Assembly: GCA_944392505.1 (NCBI GenBank)
Contig: CALXWU010000002.1
Span: 1-49,175, forward strand
DNA: 49,175 bases
Source: an uncultured Clostridia bacterium
GTDB lineage: Bacteria; Bacillota; Clostridia; TANB77; CAG-508
Direction: 5' to 3'
Made by a program: the position numbers and the translations under genes. Of the stretch, positions 200 to 48,165 are shown one piece after another. The notes under the pieces are model-generated. The model was not told where the DNA came from. It saw only the letters and a list, made by a program, of their open reading frames with translations, and did no database searches. Within the stretch, counting starts at the first letter, position 1. Each line of letters starts with the position of its first letter.

Positions 200-3100
200 A
201 TGCACAACTTACTTATAAAAAGATTAGAAGAATCAGAAAAATTTATTGAACTTATGAAGGAAATAAAAATGAAAAAAACCCCGATAAATATATCGGGGTT
301 AGTATTCGTGGGAAAATCTCATATGATTTCAACCATAAGTGAAAATGTTAAAAACCCATTATGTGTAATAACATATAATGAGATTCAGGCTAAAAATTTA
401 GTGAGAGATTTAAGATGCTTTACTGAAAATGTTGAATATTTCGGCAAAAGAGAAATCGCTTCATATGACTATATTTCAGAAAGCAAGGATTTGCCATATG
501 CGAGAATAGATGTTTTAAATAAAATATATAATAAAGAAGCAAAAATAGTTGTTACAACAGTTGAAGCTTTAATGCAGGGCATGATACCAAAAGATGTTTT
601 ATACAAAAATGTAATCACCTTTAGTGTAGGAAATCTGTTTGAAGGTACTGGATTTTCAGGAAAAAAGAATTTAAATAATTTGAAACAGTTGTTGCTTTTA
701 TTAGGATATGAAAGAAATGACATGGTGGAGAATAGAGGGCAATTCAGCATTAGAGGTGGAATAGTAGATATAGGGCTTAGTGAAAAGACTGGTGTTAGAA
801 TTGAATTCTGGGGTGATGAGGTAGATTCTATAAGATATTTTAGTATTGCCTCACAAAGAACAACTGAAATGACCGATAAAATAAGAATATTCCCAGCTCA
901 TGAATATGTATTAGAGTATGAGGTGGAAGACAATATATTACCAGAATATTCTAAAGTAGTTTTACCAGTAGTCAACAATATAAAAGAAAATTGTATACAA
1001 AATGTGAATAAATCAAATATAGAAGCAGATATTGAAGCAATACAAAATGGGGAATTTTTAAGCAAAATAGATAAATATTTTAATGAATTCTATTCTAAAA
1101 AAAGTAGTTTTTTAGAATATTTATCAAGTGATACTTTAATATGCGTGGATGAAAATTTAAAAATTAATCAAAGAATAGAAAACATATTAATAGAGAATAA
1201 TAATTTAATAAAATCCTTAGTAGAAAGATCTAGATTTATCCCAGAGGGAATTGCAAATGTAAGTGATTTTAATAGACAAGAATGGAATAATATATATGAA
1301 GATAAACCAACTATTTATTTAGAAGAAAATAATAGTAGCAATGTAAATAAATTTGAGTTTAATTATAGAGAAATAAACTTTTTCAAAAGCGAATTAGATT
1401 TACTTATAGACGACATAAAAAAATGGCAAAATGAGAAAAAAGAAATTGTAGTTTTAGCAGGAAATAAAGAAAATGCAGAAAGAATAAATAAGCTGTTTGA
1501 GGAGAAAAATATAAATGCAACTAGCAAGGTCTGTCCCCAAAACGACAACTTTGTCGCTTGGGGGACTGTCCCTAAAACGACAATTTTGGTTGGACCTACG
1601 ACGACAACTGGGTTTGAGTGTTATGATTTGAATTTGGTTGTTATTAATATGGCAGAGGCTTTTGAGGGAACGGCTAAAAAGAAGAAAACTAGTAGTACAT
1701 TTAAACAGGGAGAGAAAATTGTTTTTGCAGATTTAAAACCAGGCGATTTTGTGGTACATAGAACTCATGGTATAGGTGAATTTGTTGGAGTAAATACTAT
1801 AGAGGCAGATGGAGTTACAAAGGACTATATAAAAATTAAGTATAGAAATGATGATATGCTTTATGTTCCAACCAACAATTTAGACAATGTTAGAAAATAT
1901 ATTGGTGGAGGAGATACTGCTCCAAGGTTAAATAAGCTTGGAAGTAAAGAATGGAGTAACACAAAATCAAAGGTAAAGAATAATTTAAGAGAAGTTGCAA
2001 AAGATTTAATTGAACTATATGCTAAAAGGCAGAAAATTAAAGGATTTGCTTTTTCGAAAGATACTGATTGGCAAAACCAATTTGAAGAAGAGTTTCCATA
2101 TCAAGAAACTGATGATCAATTAAGATGTATAGAAGAAGTAAAAAAAGATATGGAACTTCCTAGACCTATGGATAGGCTATTATGTGGAGATGTTGGTTAT
2201 GGAAAAACAGAAGTGGCTATAAGGGCTGCATTTAAGGCTGTTATGGATCATAAACAAGTGGCATACTTAGTTCCAACCACCGTTTTAGCAAGTCAGCAAT
2301 ATGATAGTTTTAAAAAAAGAATGGAAAATTTTGCGATAAATGTGGAATTATTGAATAGATTTAGGACCCAAAAAGAGCAAAATGAAGTTGTAAAAAAGCT
2401 AAAGCTTGGAGAAACTGATGTTGTAATTGGTACACATAGATTACTTAGTGAAGATGTAGAATTTAAAGATTTAGGGCTTCTTATCATAGATGAAGAGCAT
2501 AGATTTGGAGTTAAGGATAAAGAAAAAATAAAAAAATTAAAAACCAGTGTAGATGTGCTAACAATGACAGCAACACCAATACCTAGAACTCTTCATATGT
2601 CTATCTTAGGAGTACGTGATATGTCTGTAATATATGAGCCACCACAAAATAGACGACCAGTTCAAACTTATGTGTTAGAATATGATACAGAAGTGGTAAA
2701 AGAGGCAATTACGAAAGAGTTAGAAAGAAACGGACAAGTATTTTATTTATACAATAACGTAGAAAATATCGCAAGGAAAGCCTTAGATATAGCTGAATTA
2801 GTTCCAGAGGCAAAAGTGGAATTTGCACATGGAAAAATGACAGGTAGAGAACTTGAAGACATCATGGAACGATTTGTAAATGGAGAAATTAATGTACTTG
2901 TTTGTACTACAATCTTGGAATCTGGAATTGATATACCAAATGCTAATACAATTATTGTAGAAAATGCAGACAGACTAGGCTTAGCACAGCTATATCAAAT
3001 AAGAGGAAGAGTAGGAAGAAGCGATAAGCAGGCATATGCATATATAACATATAAAAGGGATAAACTACTTTCTGAAGTTGCAGATAAAAGGTTAAAGGCA

Positions 3101-3769
3101 ATCCGTGAATTTACCGAATTTGGTTCAGGTTTTAAAATTGCAATGAGAGACTTGGAAATAAGAGGGGCAGGAAGCTTACTTGGAGAAATACAACATGGAC
3201 ATATGGAACAAGTTGGGTATGATACATATTGCAATTTATTAGACCAAGTTGTAAAAGAAATGCAAGGTATAGAAATAGAAGAAGAACCAGAAATTCAGAT
3301 AGATATAAATATCTCAAGTTATATACCAGATAGCTATATAGATAATAGTAGTCAAAAAATTGAGATATATCAAAATATTGCTTTATGTAGAACAGAAGAA
3401 GATATACAAAATGTAATAGATGAAATTATTGATAGATATGGAGTAATGCCAAAAGAATTGGAAAACTTAATAGAGGTAGCTAGAATAAAAGAATTATGTA
3501 GAGAAGCTGGGGTAATTAAAATATCTGAGAAGAAAAATATGCTTACTAATTCAAATAATATAGTTTTCTATTATGATAAAAATAAATATGATCCTGAAAT
3601 AGTTGATAGATTAATAAAGAAATATGGGAATGATGTAAAATTCTCAGCTGGAATAGAACCATATGTAACTTTAAAAATAGGCAATTTAAAGGATGAGAAG
3701 TTGGTAGAAAAAATAAAAGAATTTTTAGGTGAAGGAGAAAAAAATGCAAGTAATTTCAAGCAAGGATAA
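200..3769 (+). CDS. mfd: Transcription-repair coupling factor Mfd
   Basis: 1189 aa. CarD/TRCF RNAP-interacting domain (DFVVHRTHGIGEFVGV), SF2 helicase motifs (GDVGYGKTEVA, IIDEEHRFG, MTATPIPRT, RGRVGRS) and TRCF C-terminal domain. Carries an in-frame repeat copy at 1523-1589. Confidence 0.95.
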   Translation: MHNLLIKRLEESEKFIELMKEIKMKKTPINISGLVFVGKSHMISTISENVKNPLCVITYNEIQAKNLVRDLRCFTENVEYFGKREIASYDYISESKDLPYARIDVLNKIYNKEAKIVVTTVEALMQGMIPKDVLYKNVITFSVGNLFEGTGFSGKKNLNNLKQLLLLLGYERNDMVENRGQFSIRGGIVDIGLSEKTGVRIEFWGDEVDSIRYFSIASQRTTEMTDKIRIFPAHEYVLEYEVEDNILPEYSKVVLPVVNNIKENCIQNVNKSNIEADIEAIQNGEFLSKIDKYFNEFYSKKSSFLEYLSSDTLICVDENLKINQRIENILIENNNLIKSLVERSRFIPEGIANVSDFNRQEWNNIYEDKPTIYLEENNSSNVNKFEFNYREINFFKSELDLLIDDIKKWQNEKKEIVVLAGNKENAERINKLFEEKNINATSKVCPQNDNFVAWGTVPKTTILVGPTTTTGFECYDLNLVVINMAEAFEGTAKKKKTSSTFKQGEKIVFADLKPGDFVVHRTHGIGEFVGVNTIEADGVTKDYIKIKYRNDDMLYVPTNNLDNVRKYIGGGDTAPRLNKLGSKEWSNTKSKVKNNLREVAKDLIELYAKRQKIKGFAFSKDTDWQNQFEEEFPYQETDDQLRCIEEVKKDMELPRPMDRLLCGDVGYGKTEVAIRAAFKAVMDHKQVAYLVPTTVLASQQYDSFKKRMENFAINVELLNRFRTQKEQNEVVKKLKLGETDVVIGTHRLLSEDVEFKDLGLLIIDEEHRFGVKDKEKIKKLKTSVDVLTMTATPIPRTLHMSILGVRDMSVIYEPPQNRRPVQTYVLEYDTEVVKEAITKELERNGQVFYLYNNVENIARKALDIAELVPEAKVEFAHGKMTGRELEDIMERFVNGEINVLVCTTILESGIDIPNANTIIVENADRLGLAQLYQIRGRVGRSDKQAYAYITYKRDKLLSEVADKRLKAIREFTEFGSGFKIAMRDLEIRGAGSLLGEIQHGHMEQVGYDTYCNLLDQVVKEMQGIEIEEEPEIQIDINISSYIPDSYIDNSSQKIEIYQNIALCRTEEDIQNVIDEIIDRYGVMPKELENLIEVARIKELCREAGVIKISEKKNMLTNSNNIVFYYDKNKYDPEIVDRLIKKYGNDVKFSAGIEPYVTLKIGNLKDEKLVEKIKEFLGEGEKNASNFKQG
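1523..1589 (+). repeat. Three-arm repeat, type A copy 1, in frame inside mfd
   Basis: AGCAAGGTCTGTCCCCAAAACGACAACTTTGTCGCTTGGGGGACTGTCCCTAAAACGACAATTTTGG aligns along its length with the intergenic copies at 41040 and 48100. It is G+C-rich relative to the flanks and is translated as SKVCPQNDNFVAWGTVPKTTIL. Confidence 0.75.
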
Positions 3770-4565
3770 CGATATTATCAAGAATATTAAGAAGCTTAAA
3801 GAGAAGAAGTATAGAGATTTAGAAAATAGCTATATTGTTGAAGGCTTAAAAATGATAAAAGAAGCTATAGAAGAAAAAGCAAATATCAAACAAATTGTAA
3901 TTTGTGAAGAGTGTATACATGATGGTGAACTAGATAAAGATACTTTATATGAAATTGCAAAATATAATTTGATTTATGTTACAAAAAAGGTTTTTGACCA
4001 GATTACTGAAGTAAAGACTCCTCAAGGGATTATTGCTGTAATTGAAAAGAAAGAGACAAATGCAAGTGATATTCGAGCCATAGATTATTCGCAAGACATT
4101 ATTATAGCTTTAGACGATTTGCAAGATCCAGGTAATTTGGGAACAATTTTAAGAACTGTTGATAGTGCTAATTTAAATCAAATTATACTTTCTAAAAATT
4201 GTGCAGATCCATATAATCCTAAGGTAGTACGTTCTACAATGGGAGCTATTTTTAGAGTTAATATTATACAAGTAGAAAATTTGAAAGAAGAGTTAGAAAA
4301 TCTAAAAAATAATGATTTTGATATTATGGTAACTTCTCTTGATACGCAAAAAAGTATATATGATGTGAATTACAATAAAAAGGTGATTGTAATAGGAAAT
4401 GAAGCAAATGGTGTTTCAAAAGAGGTACAAGATATAGCAGATGAAAAAGTAAAAATTCCAATGCTTGGGAAAACTGAAAGTCTAAATGCATCTGTAGCTA
4501 CAGGTATTATTATATATGAATATGTTAGAAGGAGAACAAATGAAATTATTAATTCAAAGGGTTAA
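3744..4565 (+). CDS. TrmH/SpoU-family RNA 2'-O-methyltransferase
   Basis: SpoU methylase motifs ([38 protein letters not shown]). ATG at 3744 with GAAGGAG 6 nt upstream is preferred over the GTG at 3729. Overlaps the mfd 3' end. Confidence 0.85.
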
Positions 4566-48021: not shown

Positions 48022-48050
48022 TTGTAAAAGAAAATGGTTTATGATATAAT
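48022..48050 (+). promoter_or_regulatory. Sigma-A promoter candidate for dnaE (TTGTAA-N17-TATAAT, TGn extended -10)
   Basis: TTGTAA at 48022-48027 and TGATATAAT at 48042-48050. This places repeat copy 3 in the 5' UTR. Confidence 0.5.
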
Positions 48051-48099
48051 CTGAAATAATGAATAGAAAATAATAAATAAAAAAAATAAATAAACAATA

Positions 48100-48165
48100 A
48101 GCAAGGCCTGTCCCAAAAACGAACAACTATGTGGTTTTGGGGACTGTCCCCAAAAGCGACAAAGG
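48100..48165 (+). repeat. Three-arm repeat, type A copy 3, in the dnaE leader
   Basis: AGCAAGGCCTGTCCCAAAAACGAACAACTATGTGGTTTTGGGGACTGTCCCCAAAAGCGACAAAGG. Its 3' end overlaps the RBS AAAGGAG. Confidence 0.8.

What the first reader, a model, noticed from the sequence alone, without database searches (positions are those of the whole stretch)
1523..48165. Element architecture is U-U'-U (forward, reverse, forward arms), allowing two mutually exclusive hairpins
Each type A copy is built as CTGTCCCCAAAACGACAA, then a 2-12 nt spacer, then the reverse complement TTGTCGTTTTGGGGAC, then a second forward arm TGTCCCCAAAAGCGACAA. Arm 2 can pair with arm 1. It can also pair with arm 3, for example GGTTTTGGGG-ACTGT-CCCCAAAA in copy 3. 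This is the geometry of a switch or of a protein-bound dyad, not of a simple terminator, and no T-tract follows. Three copies plus two variant copies in 49 kb implies many copies genome-wide.
Basis: seen in the sequence. Interest (0 to 1): 0.62.

Follow-up and report, generated by a model that had tools for sequence, protein, structure and literature searches.

The report
REP-like repeats with RAYT-type transposase
The forward-reverse-forward repeat is real, but it is one form of a small selfish palindromic repeat of the REP/REPIN kind that is scattered about 37 times through this uncultured gut Clostridia genome, and its own hairpin-cutting transposase gene sits between two inverted copies on another contig, so it is a new example of a known kind of element and not a riboswitch-like switch.

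Summary
The three copies exist at 1527-1583, 41040-41096 and 48104-48161. There were 8 arm matches against 0.04 expected. In the forward-reverse-forward copies, arm 2 can pair with arm 1 or with arm 3 at similar energies.

The assembly is a 1.2 Mb MAG with 29% GC. It holds about 37 loci of this family. Only about 8 are forward-reverse-forward. About 20 are a two-direct-unit form that barely folds (z about -0.5).

Contig C14 carries the assembly's only Y1/HUH transposase gene, 272 aa with a C-terminal HTH. Its closest sequence and fold match is E. coli TnpA-REP (4ER8). Two inverted copies of the repeat flank it. In all 19 Y1 loci resolved in relatives, species-specific inverted repeats flank the gene and keep the core GGGAC/GTCCC. 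This matches the published TIRtron motif GGGGWSAS.

Rfam has no match, and no terminator-like T-tract follows. One copy lies in frame inside mfd. The CGACA end usually touches a Shine-Dalgarno sequence or a stop codon. One strain carries the other subtype at the same spoIIAB site.

Verdict: a Clostridial REP/RAYT (TIRYT-type) repeat population, a new member of a known kind. Mobilisation is inferred, not shown.

The parts
1527..1583 (+). Family-1 copy, type A (U-U'-U). It lies in frame inside the mfd ORF and is translated as SKVCPQNDNFVAWGTVPKTT.
   Evidence: It is fixed in 8 strains of the species.
200..3769 (+). mfd (transcription-repair coupling factor), an intact 1189-aa ORF that hosts the in-frame copy in its variable region before the RNAP-interacting domain.
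   Evidence: Relatives carry their own repeat variants at the same site.
41040..41096 (+). Family-1 copy, type A with a decayed third arm. It lies between spoIIAA and spoIIAB and its 3' end is followed at once by AAAGGAGG and the ATG.
   Evidence: A type-B element replaces it at identical borders in one strain.
48104..48161 (+). Family-1 copy, a type B/A hybrid. It lies in the predicted 5' UTR of dnaE and is followed at once by AAGGAGC and the ATG.
   Evidence: It is present in 10 strains.
48022..48050 (+). Promoter-like site (TTGTAA-17-TATAAT with TG). It places the 48104 copy inside the dnaE leader.
   Evidence: consensus match only.
24170..24226 (-). Sister family 4 copy (TTACCACTTTTGTCACAAAAACACCTGTCCC). 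It begins 2 nt after a stop codon.
29848..29904 (-). Sister family 4 copy, the second 'variant copy'. It begins 2 nt after a stop codon.
39882..39975 (.). Sister family 3 cluster (ATGTCTGTCCC...TTGTTTCAAATTTGAAACAAATTGTGTGTCCCC) between valS and a small ORF. Strains differ here by insertions and deletions.
40523..40595 (.). Decayed family 3 copy, the inverted partner of 39882-39954. It lies upstream of the spoIIA promoter region.
   Evidence: (I1).
7205..7290 (.). A further GGGAC...GTCCC hairpin element in an intergenic gap.
22283..22330 (.). A further GGGAC-loop hairpin (GTGGACAAAA-GGGACACTTG-TTTTTGTCCAC).
34150..34200 (.). A further GGGAC/GTCCC palindrome (AAAGGGACACGCATTTGTGTCCCTTT).

Best explanation
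The repeat is a member of a REP/BIME-like (REPIN-like) family of short non-coding palindromic elements. The basic unit is U = (A)GGYCTGTCCC(C)AAAA(G)CGACA. It is assembled in direct and inverted arrays:
- type A is U-U'-U;
- type B is U, a weak hairpin, then U;
- hybrids and U'-hairpin-U forms also occur.

The cognate enzyme is the genome's single RAYT-like Y1/HUH tyrosine transposase. It is of the long HTH-bearing 'TIRYT', subclass 2.1 / RAYT group 1 type. It lies outside the window, on contig C14:1868-2686, and is flanked by two inverted type-B copies.

Inferred mechanism, by analogy with TnpA-REP and IS200/IS605: the enzyme binds folded single-stranded repeat DNA at replication forks. It reads the invariant GGGGACAG/CTGTCCCC core and cuts and rejoins there. 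This spreads, replaces and homogenises copies.

Shown here: the family, its abundance, its anatomy, the flanked Y1 gene, the conserved core with co-varying arms, and a subtype replacement between strains.

Inferred only: that this enzyme moves or overwrites the repeats, and any effect on neighbouring genes. The two exclusive hairpins follow from three alternately oriented units and are not a designed switch.
For: 1) About 37 loci in 1.2 Mb were found by nhmmer. The 12-mer CTGTCCCCAAAA occurs 34 times. GTCCCCAAAA occurs 49 times against 0.9 expected.

2) The assembly has one Y1_Tnp gene (PF01797, E 1.9e-14; tblastn finds no other). It is flanked by inverted type-B copies at C14:1589-1646 (-) and C14:2685-2742 (+). 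Its stop codon overlaps the downstream copy.

3) The protein carries HUH (NHVHL) and the Tyr motif (RYIHNNP).
- The best NCBIfam hit is 'REP-associated tyrosine transposase' at 61 bits, against 20 bits for IS200.
- A profile of relatives hits PDB 4ER8 (TnpA-REP) at 3.6e-7, against 0.016 for ISDra2.
- The AlphaFold model (pLDDT 84) has 4ER8 as its best Foldseek hit (8.3e-7, TMt 0.68).

4) In all 19 Y1 loci resolved in relatives, inverted repeats flank the gene. Their arms differ by species, but the core GGGAC upstream and GTCCC downstream is kept. The orthologue sits at a fixed GH15-like/radA position in 7 genomes.

5) The arms co-vary: AAAACGACAA/TTGTCGTTTT against AAAGTGCCA/TGGCACTTT. Six pairs change on both sides, and the covariation score is 0.207 against 0.085 in shuffles.

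6) One strain of the same species, with an identical SpoIIAB protein, carries a type-B element exactly where the window has type A, with the same borders.

7) The core fits the published TIRtron motif GGGGWSAS (PMC3733652). Long HTH-bearing Y1 proteins form subclass 2.1, which equals TIRYT and RAYT group 1 (PMC6006769). Group 1 is recorded in Clostridia (PMC5581495).
Against: - No transposition, excision or cleavage was observed.
- The three window copies are fixed in all 8-10 strain contigs examined, so no presence/absence polymorphism was seen.
- The commonest subtype, B, does not fold significantly as single-stranded DNA.
- There is no GTAG tetranucleotide.
- The protein scores below the NCBIfam RAYT equivalog cut-off (61 against 80 bits).
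- The assembly has four GTCCC-core families but only one Y1 gene. The MAG is 78% complete, so other genes may be missing.
- The strong one-sided contact with Shine-Dalgarno sequences and stop codons is not predicted by a simple selfish-element model.
Confidence: 0.85

Rival explanations
1. It is a cis-regulatory RNA switch. Arm 2 pairs with arm 1 or with arm 3, and this toggles translation or stability of the downstream gene.
For: Both hairpins are feasible and have similar energy in several type-A copies. 15 of 37 copies end within 3 nt of a Shine-Dalgarno sequence and lie sense to the gene. The dnaE copy lies in a predicted 5' UTR.
Against: - The SD lies outside both hairpins and no anti-SD is present.
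- Most copies (type B) have no significant fold.
- 12 copies lie antisense behind stop codons, and one is translated inside mfd.
- The downstream genes are unrelated in function.
- No Rfam match was found.
- Type A and type B replace each other at one site between strains.
Confidence: 0.05
2. The copies have been taken over by the host as gene-boundary modules. Candidate roles are 5' or 3' mRNA stabilisers, intercistronic insulators, or stop-proximal translation dampers as reported for E. coli REPs. Under this reading they are kept for that role, whatever their origin.
For: The CGACA end abuts the complement of a stop codon with 0 nt gap in 9 copies. From the free intergenic space, about 0.13 such cases are expected at that end. 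The SD begins within 3 nt in 15 copies. Sister families show the same tight contact. Copies are fixed across strains. Orthologous sites are occupied in several species.
Against: There are no expression data. Empty orthologous sites exist and the genes look normal there: G008, G001, G006, G010 and G012 at spoIIAB, and L013 and L015 in mfd. Deletional compaction of a small genome, or a target preference, could give the same pattern.
Confidence: 0.07
3. It is a MITE derived from a DDE-type insertion sequence, or the binding-site array of an ordinary transcription factor or nucleoid protein, and is unrelated to the Y1 gene.
For: The elements are short, carry inverted repeats and are intergenic. 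The dyad symmetry would suit a dimeric binding protein.
Against: No target-site duplication is visible at the borders. The same core flanks Y1 genes in 19 of 19 loci in relatives, which chance or an unrelated factor would not give. Copies lie in front of unrelated genes, behind genes and inside a gene.
Confidence: 0.03

Closest known systems
TIRtrons / TIRYT (Di Nocera, De Gregorio & Rocco 2013, PMC3733652), which equal TnpA-Y1 subclass 2.1 (Quentin et al. 2018, PMC6006769) and RAYT group 1 (Bertels et al. 2017, PMC5581495)
   Same: - A long Y1/HUH protein with a C-terminal HTH.
- The gene is flanked by inverted repeats carrying GGGG[AT][CG]A[CG] (here GGGGACAG).
- The repeats also form a moderately abundant dispersed family arranged in dimers and clusters.
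- Group 1 is recorded in Clostridia.
   Different: - Subclass 2.1 was reported as having no identifiable REP-like sequences next to the gene (PMC6006769). Here the flanking repeat is a 37-locus family with hairpin-forming arrays.
- At least four GTCCC-core families coexist in a 1.2 Mb assembly.
- One copy is in frame in mfd, and contact with gene borders is tight.
REP/BIME with TnpA-REP (RAYT) of E. coli (REPtron; PDB 4ER8), and REPINs of Pseudomonas fluorescens
   Same: - A single-copy Y1 transposase at a fixed, vertically inherited position.
- The gene is flanked by inverted copies of the genome's dispersed palindromic repeat.
- Units occur in alternating orientation in clusters (BIME-like).
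- The best sequence and fold match of the protein is 4ER8.
   Different: - There is no GTAG head. The conserved motif is GTCCC/GGGAC.
- The unit itself is not palindromic. Hairpins arise from pairs of units.
- The protein is about 100 aa longer, with an HTH tail.
- The host is a low-GC Firmicute.
Rickettsia palindromic elements (RPE) and intragenic REPs (PMC3733652)
   Same: A copy is inserted in frame in a protein-coding gene that stays intact, and this gene is a DNA-repair gene. Di Nocera et al. note that many intragenic REPs lie in replication and repair genes.
   Different: It is a different sequence family. RPEs have no known transposase partner. Here the same mfd site is occupied in many species by each species' own repeat variant.
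IS200/IS605 insertion sequences (IS608, ISDra2)
   Same: The Y1/HUH catalytic core is shared. The presumed action is on single-stranded hairpin DNA without target duplication.
   Different: The transposase gene here is single-copy and not itself multiplied. The short repeats multiply without it. IS200 models score much lower.

Membership tests
REP/REPIN-RAYT system (REPtron) | Y1/HUH tyrosine transposase with an HUH motif and a catalytic Tyr in Y---NP | tested here: met
   NHVHL and RYIHNNP are invariant in 13 and in 32 aligned homologues. PF01797 scores 8.5e-14. 4ER8 is the best hit by profile and by fold.
REP/REPIN-RAYT system (REPtron) | Transposase gene flanked by inverted copies of the genome's dispersed repeat | tested here: met
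   Copies lie at C14:1589-1646 (-) and C14:2685-2742 (+) around ORF 1868-2686. The same build is seen in 19 loci of relatives.
REP/REPIN-RAYT system (REPtron) | Single-copy gene at a conserved, vertically inherited position | tested here: met
   One match was found in G000. The same GH15-like/radA neighbourhood is seen in G000, G009, G002, G005, G008, G001 and G016. The MAG is only 78% complete.
REP/REPIN-RAYT system (REPtron) | Repeat abundant, mostly extragenic | tested here: met
   About 37 loci in 1.2 Mb. 36 are intergenic or overlap gene ends, and 1 is intragenic.
REP/REPIN-RAYT system (REPtron) | GTAG (or CGTC) tetranucleotide at the foot of an imperfect palindrome | tested here: not met
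   No GTAG or CGTC head is present. The conserved motif is CTGTCCCC/GGGGACAG.
REP/REPIN-RAYT system (REPtron) | Passes the curated RAYT protein model (NCBIfam NF047646) | tested here: not met
   It is the best hit, but at 61.3 bits against a cut-off of 80.
REP/REPIN-RAYT system (REPtron) | Enzyme binds and cleaves its repeat; repeats are mobile | not testable with these tools
   The only indirect evidence is the type A to type B replacement at one site between strains.
TIRtron / TIRYT (subclass 2.1) | Flanking inverted repeats carry GGGG[AT][CG]A[CG] | tested here: met
   GGGGACAG / CTGTCCCC is present in G000 and in most relatives. The motif is taken from PMC3733652.
TIRtron / TIRYT (subclass 2.1) | Long protein with a C-terminal HTH (HTH_23/HTH_28/Bac_DnaA_C-like) | tested here: met
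   The protein is 272 aa. There are weak HTH_23, HTH_28 and Sigma70_r4 hits at residues 215-263, and the model has a helical C-terminal domain. No single HTH model reaches its cut-off.
TIRtron / TIRYT (subclass 2.1) | Placement inside subclass 2.1 on a tree with the published sequences | not tested
   The reference sequences of PMC6006769 were not on hand. The assignment rests on length, the HTH tail and the TIR motif.
Rfam cis-regulatory RNA or sRNA families | Match to a curated covariance model | tested here: not met
   At gathering threshold only two tRNAs match. At E up to 10 only chance hairpin hits appear, far below their cut-offs.
Intrinsic terminator | G+C-rich hairpin followed by a T-tract | tested here: not met
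   No terminator-like site lies at any of the three copies. They are followed by AAGGAGG or by coding sequence.

The most novel reading that the evidence does not exclude
The repeats are not just scattered junk. They are kept at fixed orthologous gene borders and are rewritten in place. Three observations point this way:
- The same sites carry, in each species and even each strain, the repeat variant current in that genome. These sites are just 5' of the spoIIAB and radA Shine-Dalgarno sequences and just 5' of an internal GGAGG in mfd.
- The borders stay identical.
- The CGACA end touches GGAGG or a stop codon far more often than free space allows.

This would mean one of two things. The HTH-bearing Y1 enzyme may overwrite resident copies (a site-bound conversion system) and prefer GGAGG-adjacent targets. 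Or the host may have adopted the repeats as a standard gene-boundary cassette.
Probability: 0.2. Interest if true: 0.6.

Novelty: new member of a known kind. Interest (0 to 1): 0.35.

Why it matters
- It explains a conspicuous G+C-rich repeat in a lineage of uncultured gut Clostridia, and it guards against annotating these copies as riboswitches, sRNAs or operator sites.
- It adds a Firmicute case in which a long, HTH-bearing Y1 transposase has a dispersed repeat population. The literature reports this class (subclass 2.1 / TIRYT) as lacking REP-like partners.
- The tiny genome, the several co-resident families, the in-frame mfd copy and the subtype swap between strains make this lineage a compact system for asking how RAYT-type enzymes maintain their repeats.
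- The repeats also break short-read assemblies. Many homologous Y1 genes sit on 1-2 kb contigs.

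Tried and rejected
- Rfam at gathering threshold and at E up to 10 found nothing relevant.
- Terminator reading: there is no T-tract and no hit.
- LexA (Cheo) box or Spo0A box reading of CGAACA.../TGTCG: I rejected it by eye because the spacing and sequence do not fit. True 0A-like boxes lie elsewhere (40590-40628).
- A conserved target tetranucleotide or a target-site duplication at the element borders: none emerged from the 37 flanks.
- Replication-strand bias: 21 of 37 copies lie on the leading strand by contig GC skew, so there is no clear bias.
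- A second Y1 gene for the three sister families: none is in the assembly.
- Presence/absence polymorphism among strains at the three window copies: none was found. All are fixed.
- The ORF 39992-40429, flanked by inverted family-3 copies, is an ordinary small protein and not a transposase.
- Single-sequence phmmer of the Y1 protein against PDB found nothing useful. A profile was needed.
- Two neighbour-protein look-ups gave nothing usable.
- RNA-seq, read-level junctions and a genus-wide count of the core motif against Y1 presence therefore could not be done.

Full report
**1. Observation**

The arm TGTCCCCAAAACGACAA, allowing up to 3 mismatches, is found 8 times in the window. Shuffled sequence gives 0.04 matches. 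The raw sequence agrees with the description.

- Copy 1 (1527-1583) and copy 2 (41040-41096) are forward arm, 2-nt spacer, reverse arm, 1 nt, forward arm.
- Copy 3 (48104-48161) has a diverged first arm (GTCCCAAAAACGAACA), a 4-nt spacer, a partly complementary second arm (TGTGGTTTTGGGGAC) and a good third arm.

Folding as DNA gives z-scores of -3.9, -3.6 and -2.8. With one arm blocked, both alternative hairpins form.
- In copies 1 and 2, arm 1:2 is the stronger pairing.
- In copy 3, arm 2:3 is the stronger.
- In three other genomic copies the two are within 0.5-2.4 kcal/mol of each other.

No terminator-like site follows any copy. The 'two variant copies' (24139-24226 and 29817-29904) exist but belong to a sister family.

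**2. The host and the family**

The window is contig C2 of a 1.2 Mb, 77-contig, 78%-complete MAG with 29% GC. Its relatives are uncultured gut Clostridia near 'Clostridium sp. CAG:245/CAG:780' and Candidatus Scatovivens.

nhmmer with two seed sequences finds about 37 non-overlapping loci at E < 1e-3. They divide as follows:
- About 8 are the U-U'-U 'type A'.
- About 20 are 'type B': AGGCCTGTCCCAAAAACGAACAACTATGTGGTTTTAACGCCTGTCCCCAAAAGCGACA. This is two direct units around a weak hairpin.
- 4 are hybrids like copy 3.
- 4 are U'-hairpin-U.

Type B does not fold better than shuffles (z -0.45 and -0.83).

The assembly also holds three sister families built on the same GTCCC core. The window contains copies of two of them, plus a few single hairpins.

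**3. The transposase**

A search with Pfam Y1_Tnp finds one gene in the assembly, on contig C14. tblastn with 19 related proteins finds no other.

The ORF is C14:1868-2686 and encodes 272 aa. It lies between a type-B copy on the minus strand (1589-1646) and a type-B copy on the plus strand (2685-2742). Its TAG stop overlaps the first bases of the downstream copy.

The protein has HUH (NHVHL) and the Y---NP tyrosine motif (RYIHNNP). Both are invariant in alignments of 13 and of 32 homologues.

- The best NCBIfam model is 'REP-associated tyrosine transposase' at 61 bits. This is below its cut-off of 80. IS200 scores 20 bits.
- A profile of the relatives hits E. coli TnpA-REP (PDB 4ER8) at 3.6e-7, and ISDra2 only at 0.016.
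- An AlphaFold model (pLDDT 84) has 4ER8 as its best Foldseek match (E 8.3e-7, TM 0.68 on the target). IS200/IS608/ISDra2 follow.
- The last 60 or so residues give weak HTH hits.

More than 1250 homologues of about 260 aa exist in metagenomes. They are almost all unnamed, and many sit on 1-2 kb contigs.

**4. Relatives**

17 of 31 related genomes have such genes. I fetched 20 loci.

In every one of the 19 loci where the ORF could be resolved, a repeat containing GGGAC lies upstream and its reverse complement containing GTCCC lies downstream. The arms around the core differ from species to species.

The orthologue of the G000 gene keeps the same neighbours in seven genomes: a GH15-like gene ending ...AHAMFIL, and radA. 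In six of them the upstream gene takes its stop codon from inside the repeat (TTGTCGCTT-TGA-GGGAC).

Arm sequences change in a compensated way between lineages (AAAACGACAA/TTGTCGTTTT against AAAGTGCCA/TGGCACTTT). Six pairs change on both sides. 87% of cells are paired, against 35-49% when the partner is slid. These changes trace to essentially one lineage split.

**5. Position relative to genes**

Only the mfd copy is truly intragenic. Other 'inside' calls come from over-long start choices. The contact is one-sided, at the ...CGACA end.

- In 15 of 37 copies a Shine-Dalgarno sequence begins within 3 nt, followed by a start codon.
- In 9 copies the end touches the complement of a stop codon with no gap. 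From the free intergenic space, about 0.13 such cases would be expected at that end.
- In 3 more copies the convergent gene stops inside the repeat.

The other end lies 0-390 nt from its neighbour. No common target word or duplication is visible. The sister families show the same tight contact.

I cannot decide between a target preference, deletional compaction of a small genome, and host use.

**6. The mfd copy**

The 57-nt element adds 19 codons (SKVCPQNDNFVAWGTVPKTT) to an intact 1189-aa Mfd. The insertion lies in the variable region before the RNAP-interacting domain.

In at least 12 related species the same place holds that species' own repeat variant. Two more hold decayed copies and two hold none. 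The right border is constant...ACA followed by GGAGG(T)CTTTC, encoding G-G-L-S-S. The one intragenic site therefore also has GGAGG just after the element.

**7. Strains**

Contigs from other samples that encode the identical SpoIIAB give strains at 97.3-99.97% identity.
- The dnaE copy is present in all 10.
- The mfd copy is present in all 8.
- At the spoIIAB site, one strain (ERZ15835398) has a complete type-B element where the window has type A. Another strain has type A with an intact third arm. All share the same borders.
- The family-3 cluster near 39950 differs by insertions and deletions between strains.

This shows turnover in place. It does not show new insertions.

Across species, the spoIIAB site is empty in five genomes. 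It is filled with species-specific variants in G000, G002, G007 and G009.

**8. Comparison with the literature**

- Di Nocera et al. (PMC3733652) describe RAYT-like genes flanked by inverted repeats sharing GGGGWSAS ('TIRtrons', 'TIRYT'). Some of these repeats form moderately abundant families in dimers and clusters. They also describe REPs that supply stop codons and REPs inside repair genes.
- Quentin et al. (PMC6006769) equate TIRYT with TnpA-Y1 subclass 2.1. These are long proteins with C-terminal HTH and correspond to RAYT group 1. They state that no REP-like sequences were found next to these genes.
- Bertels et al. (PMC5581495) record group 1 in Clostridia, with about 12 occurrences of flanking 16-mers.

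The present system fits this class. GGGGACAG matches GGGGWSAS, and it extends the class with a clear hairpin-forming, dispersed population in a Firmicute.

Other reports of this scan on other genomes reached the same reading. I treated them as leads only.

**9. Verdict**

The repeat is a Clostridial REP/BIME-like family tied to a TIRYT-type RAYT. The 'switch' geometry is a by-product of three alternating units.

Mobilisation by the Y1 enzyme is inferred from the flanking arrangement, the conserved core and homology to TnpA-REP. It was not observed.

Noticed in passing
window 39882-39975 and 40523-40595: A 73-nt inverted repeat (77% complementary) made of family-3 GTCCC repeats brackets a small ORF (39992-40429, minus strand, 145 aa, no clear family). 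Strains differ here by an extra repeat block of about 70 nt.
   Followed up: partly
window 9130-9168 and 40590-40628: AAATTTGTCGAAAA occurs twice. The second occurrence lies just upstream of the spoIIA operon promoter region. It looks like a Spo0A (0A) box, from my own knowledge of the TGTCGAA consensus.
   Followed up: no
window 8700-9800: A small cassette (an HTH_3 repressor-like gene on the minus strand plus a 101-aa ORF) between an 81-aa ORF and murT is present in some strains of the species and absent in others. A 141-aa ORF between the GATase gene and rlmN is present in other strains but absent here.
   Followed up: no
G000 contig C14:1500-1650 and orthologues in relatives: The GH15-like gene upstream of the Y1 gene ends inside the repeat and takes its stop codon from it (TGA or TAG just before GGGAC). 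This holds in six species.
   Followed up: partly
whole genome (earlier notes of this scan): Earlier notes say that this lineage reads in-frame CGG as a +1 shift (C skipped, GGN read as Gly). I did not examine this. None of the three window copies contains CGG.
   Followed up: no
homologues of the Y1 protein: Very many homologous Y1 genes sit alone on contigs of about 1-2 kb. This is what one expects if flanking repeats break short-read assemblies, so MAGs of this clade may often lack the gene for technical reasons.
   Followed up: no
L128/L137 (strain ERZ28615321), region of window 36700-37200: One strain has a longer valS product (924 against 900 aa) and two extra genes (372 aa and a PCC-domain protein) upstream of valS.
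   Followed up: no
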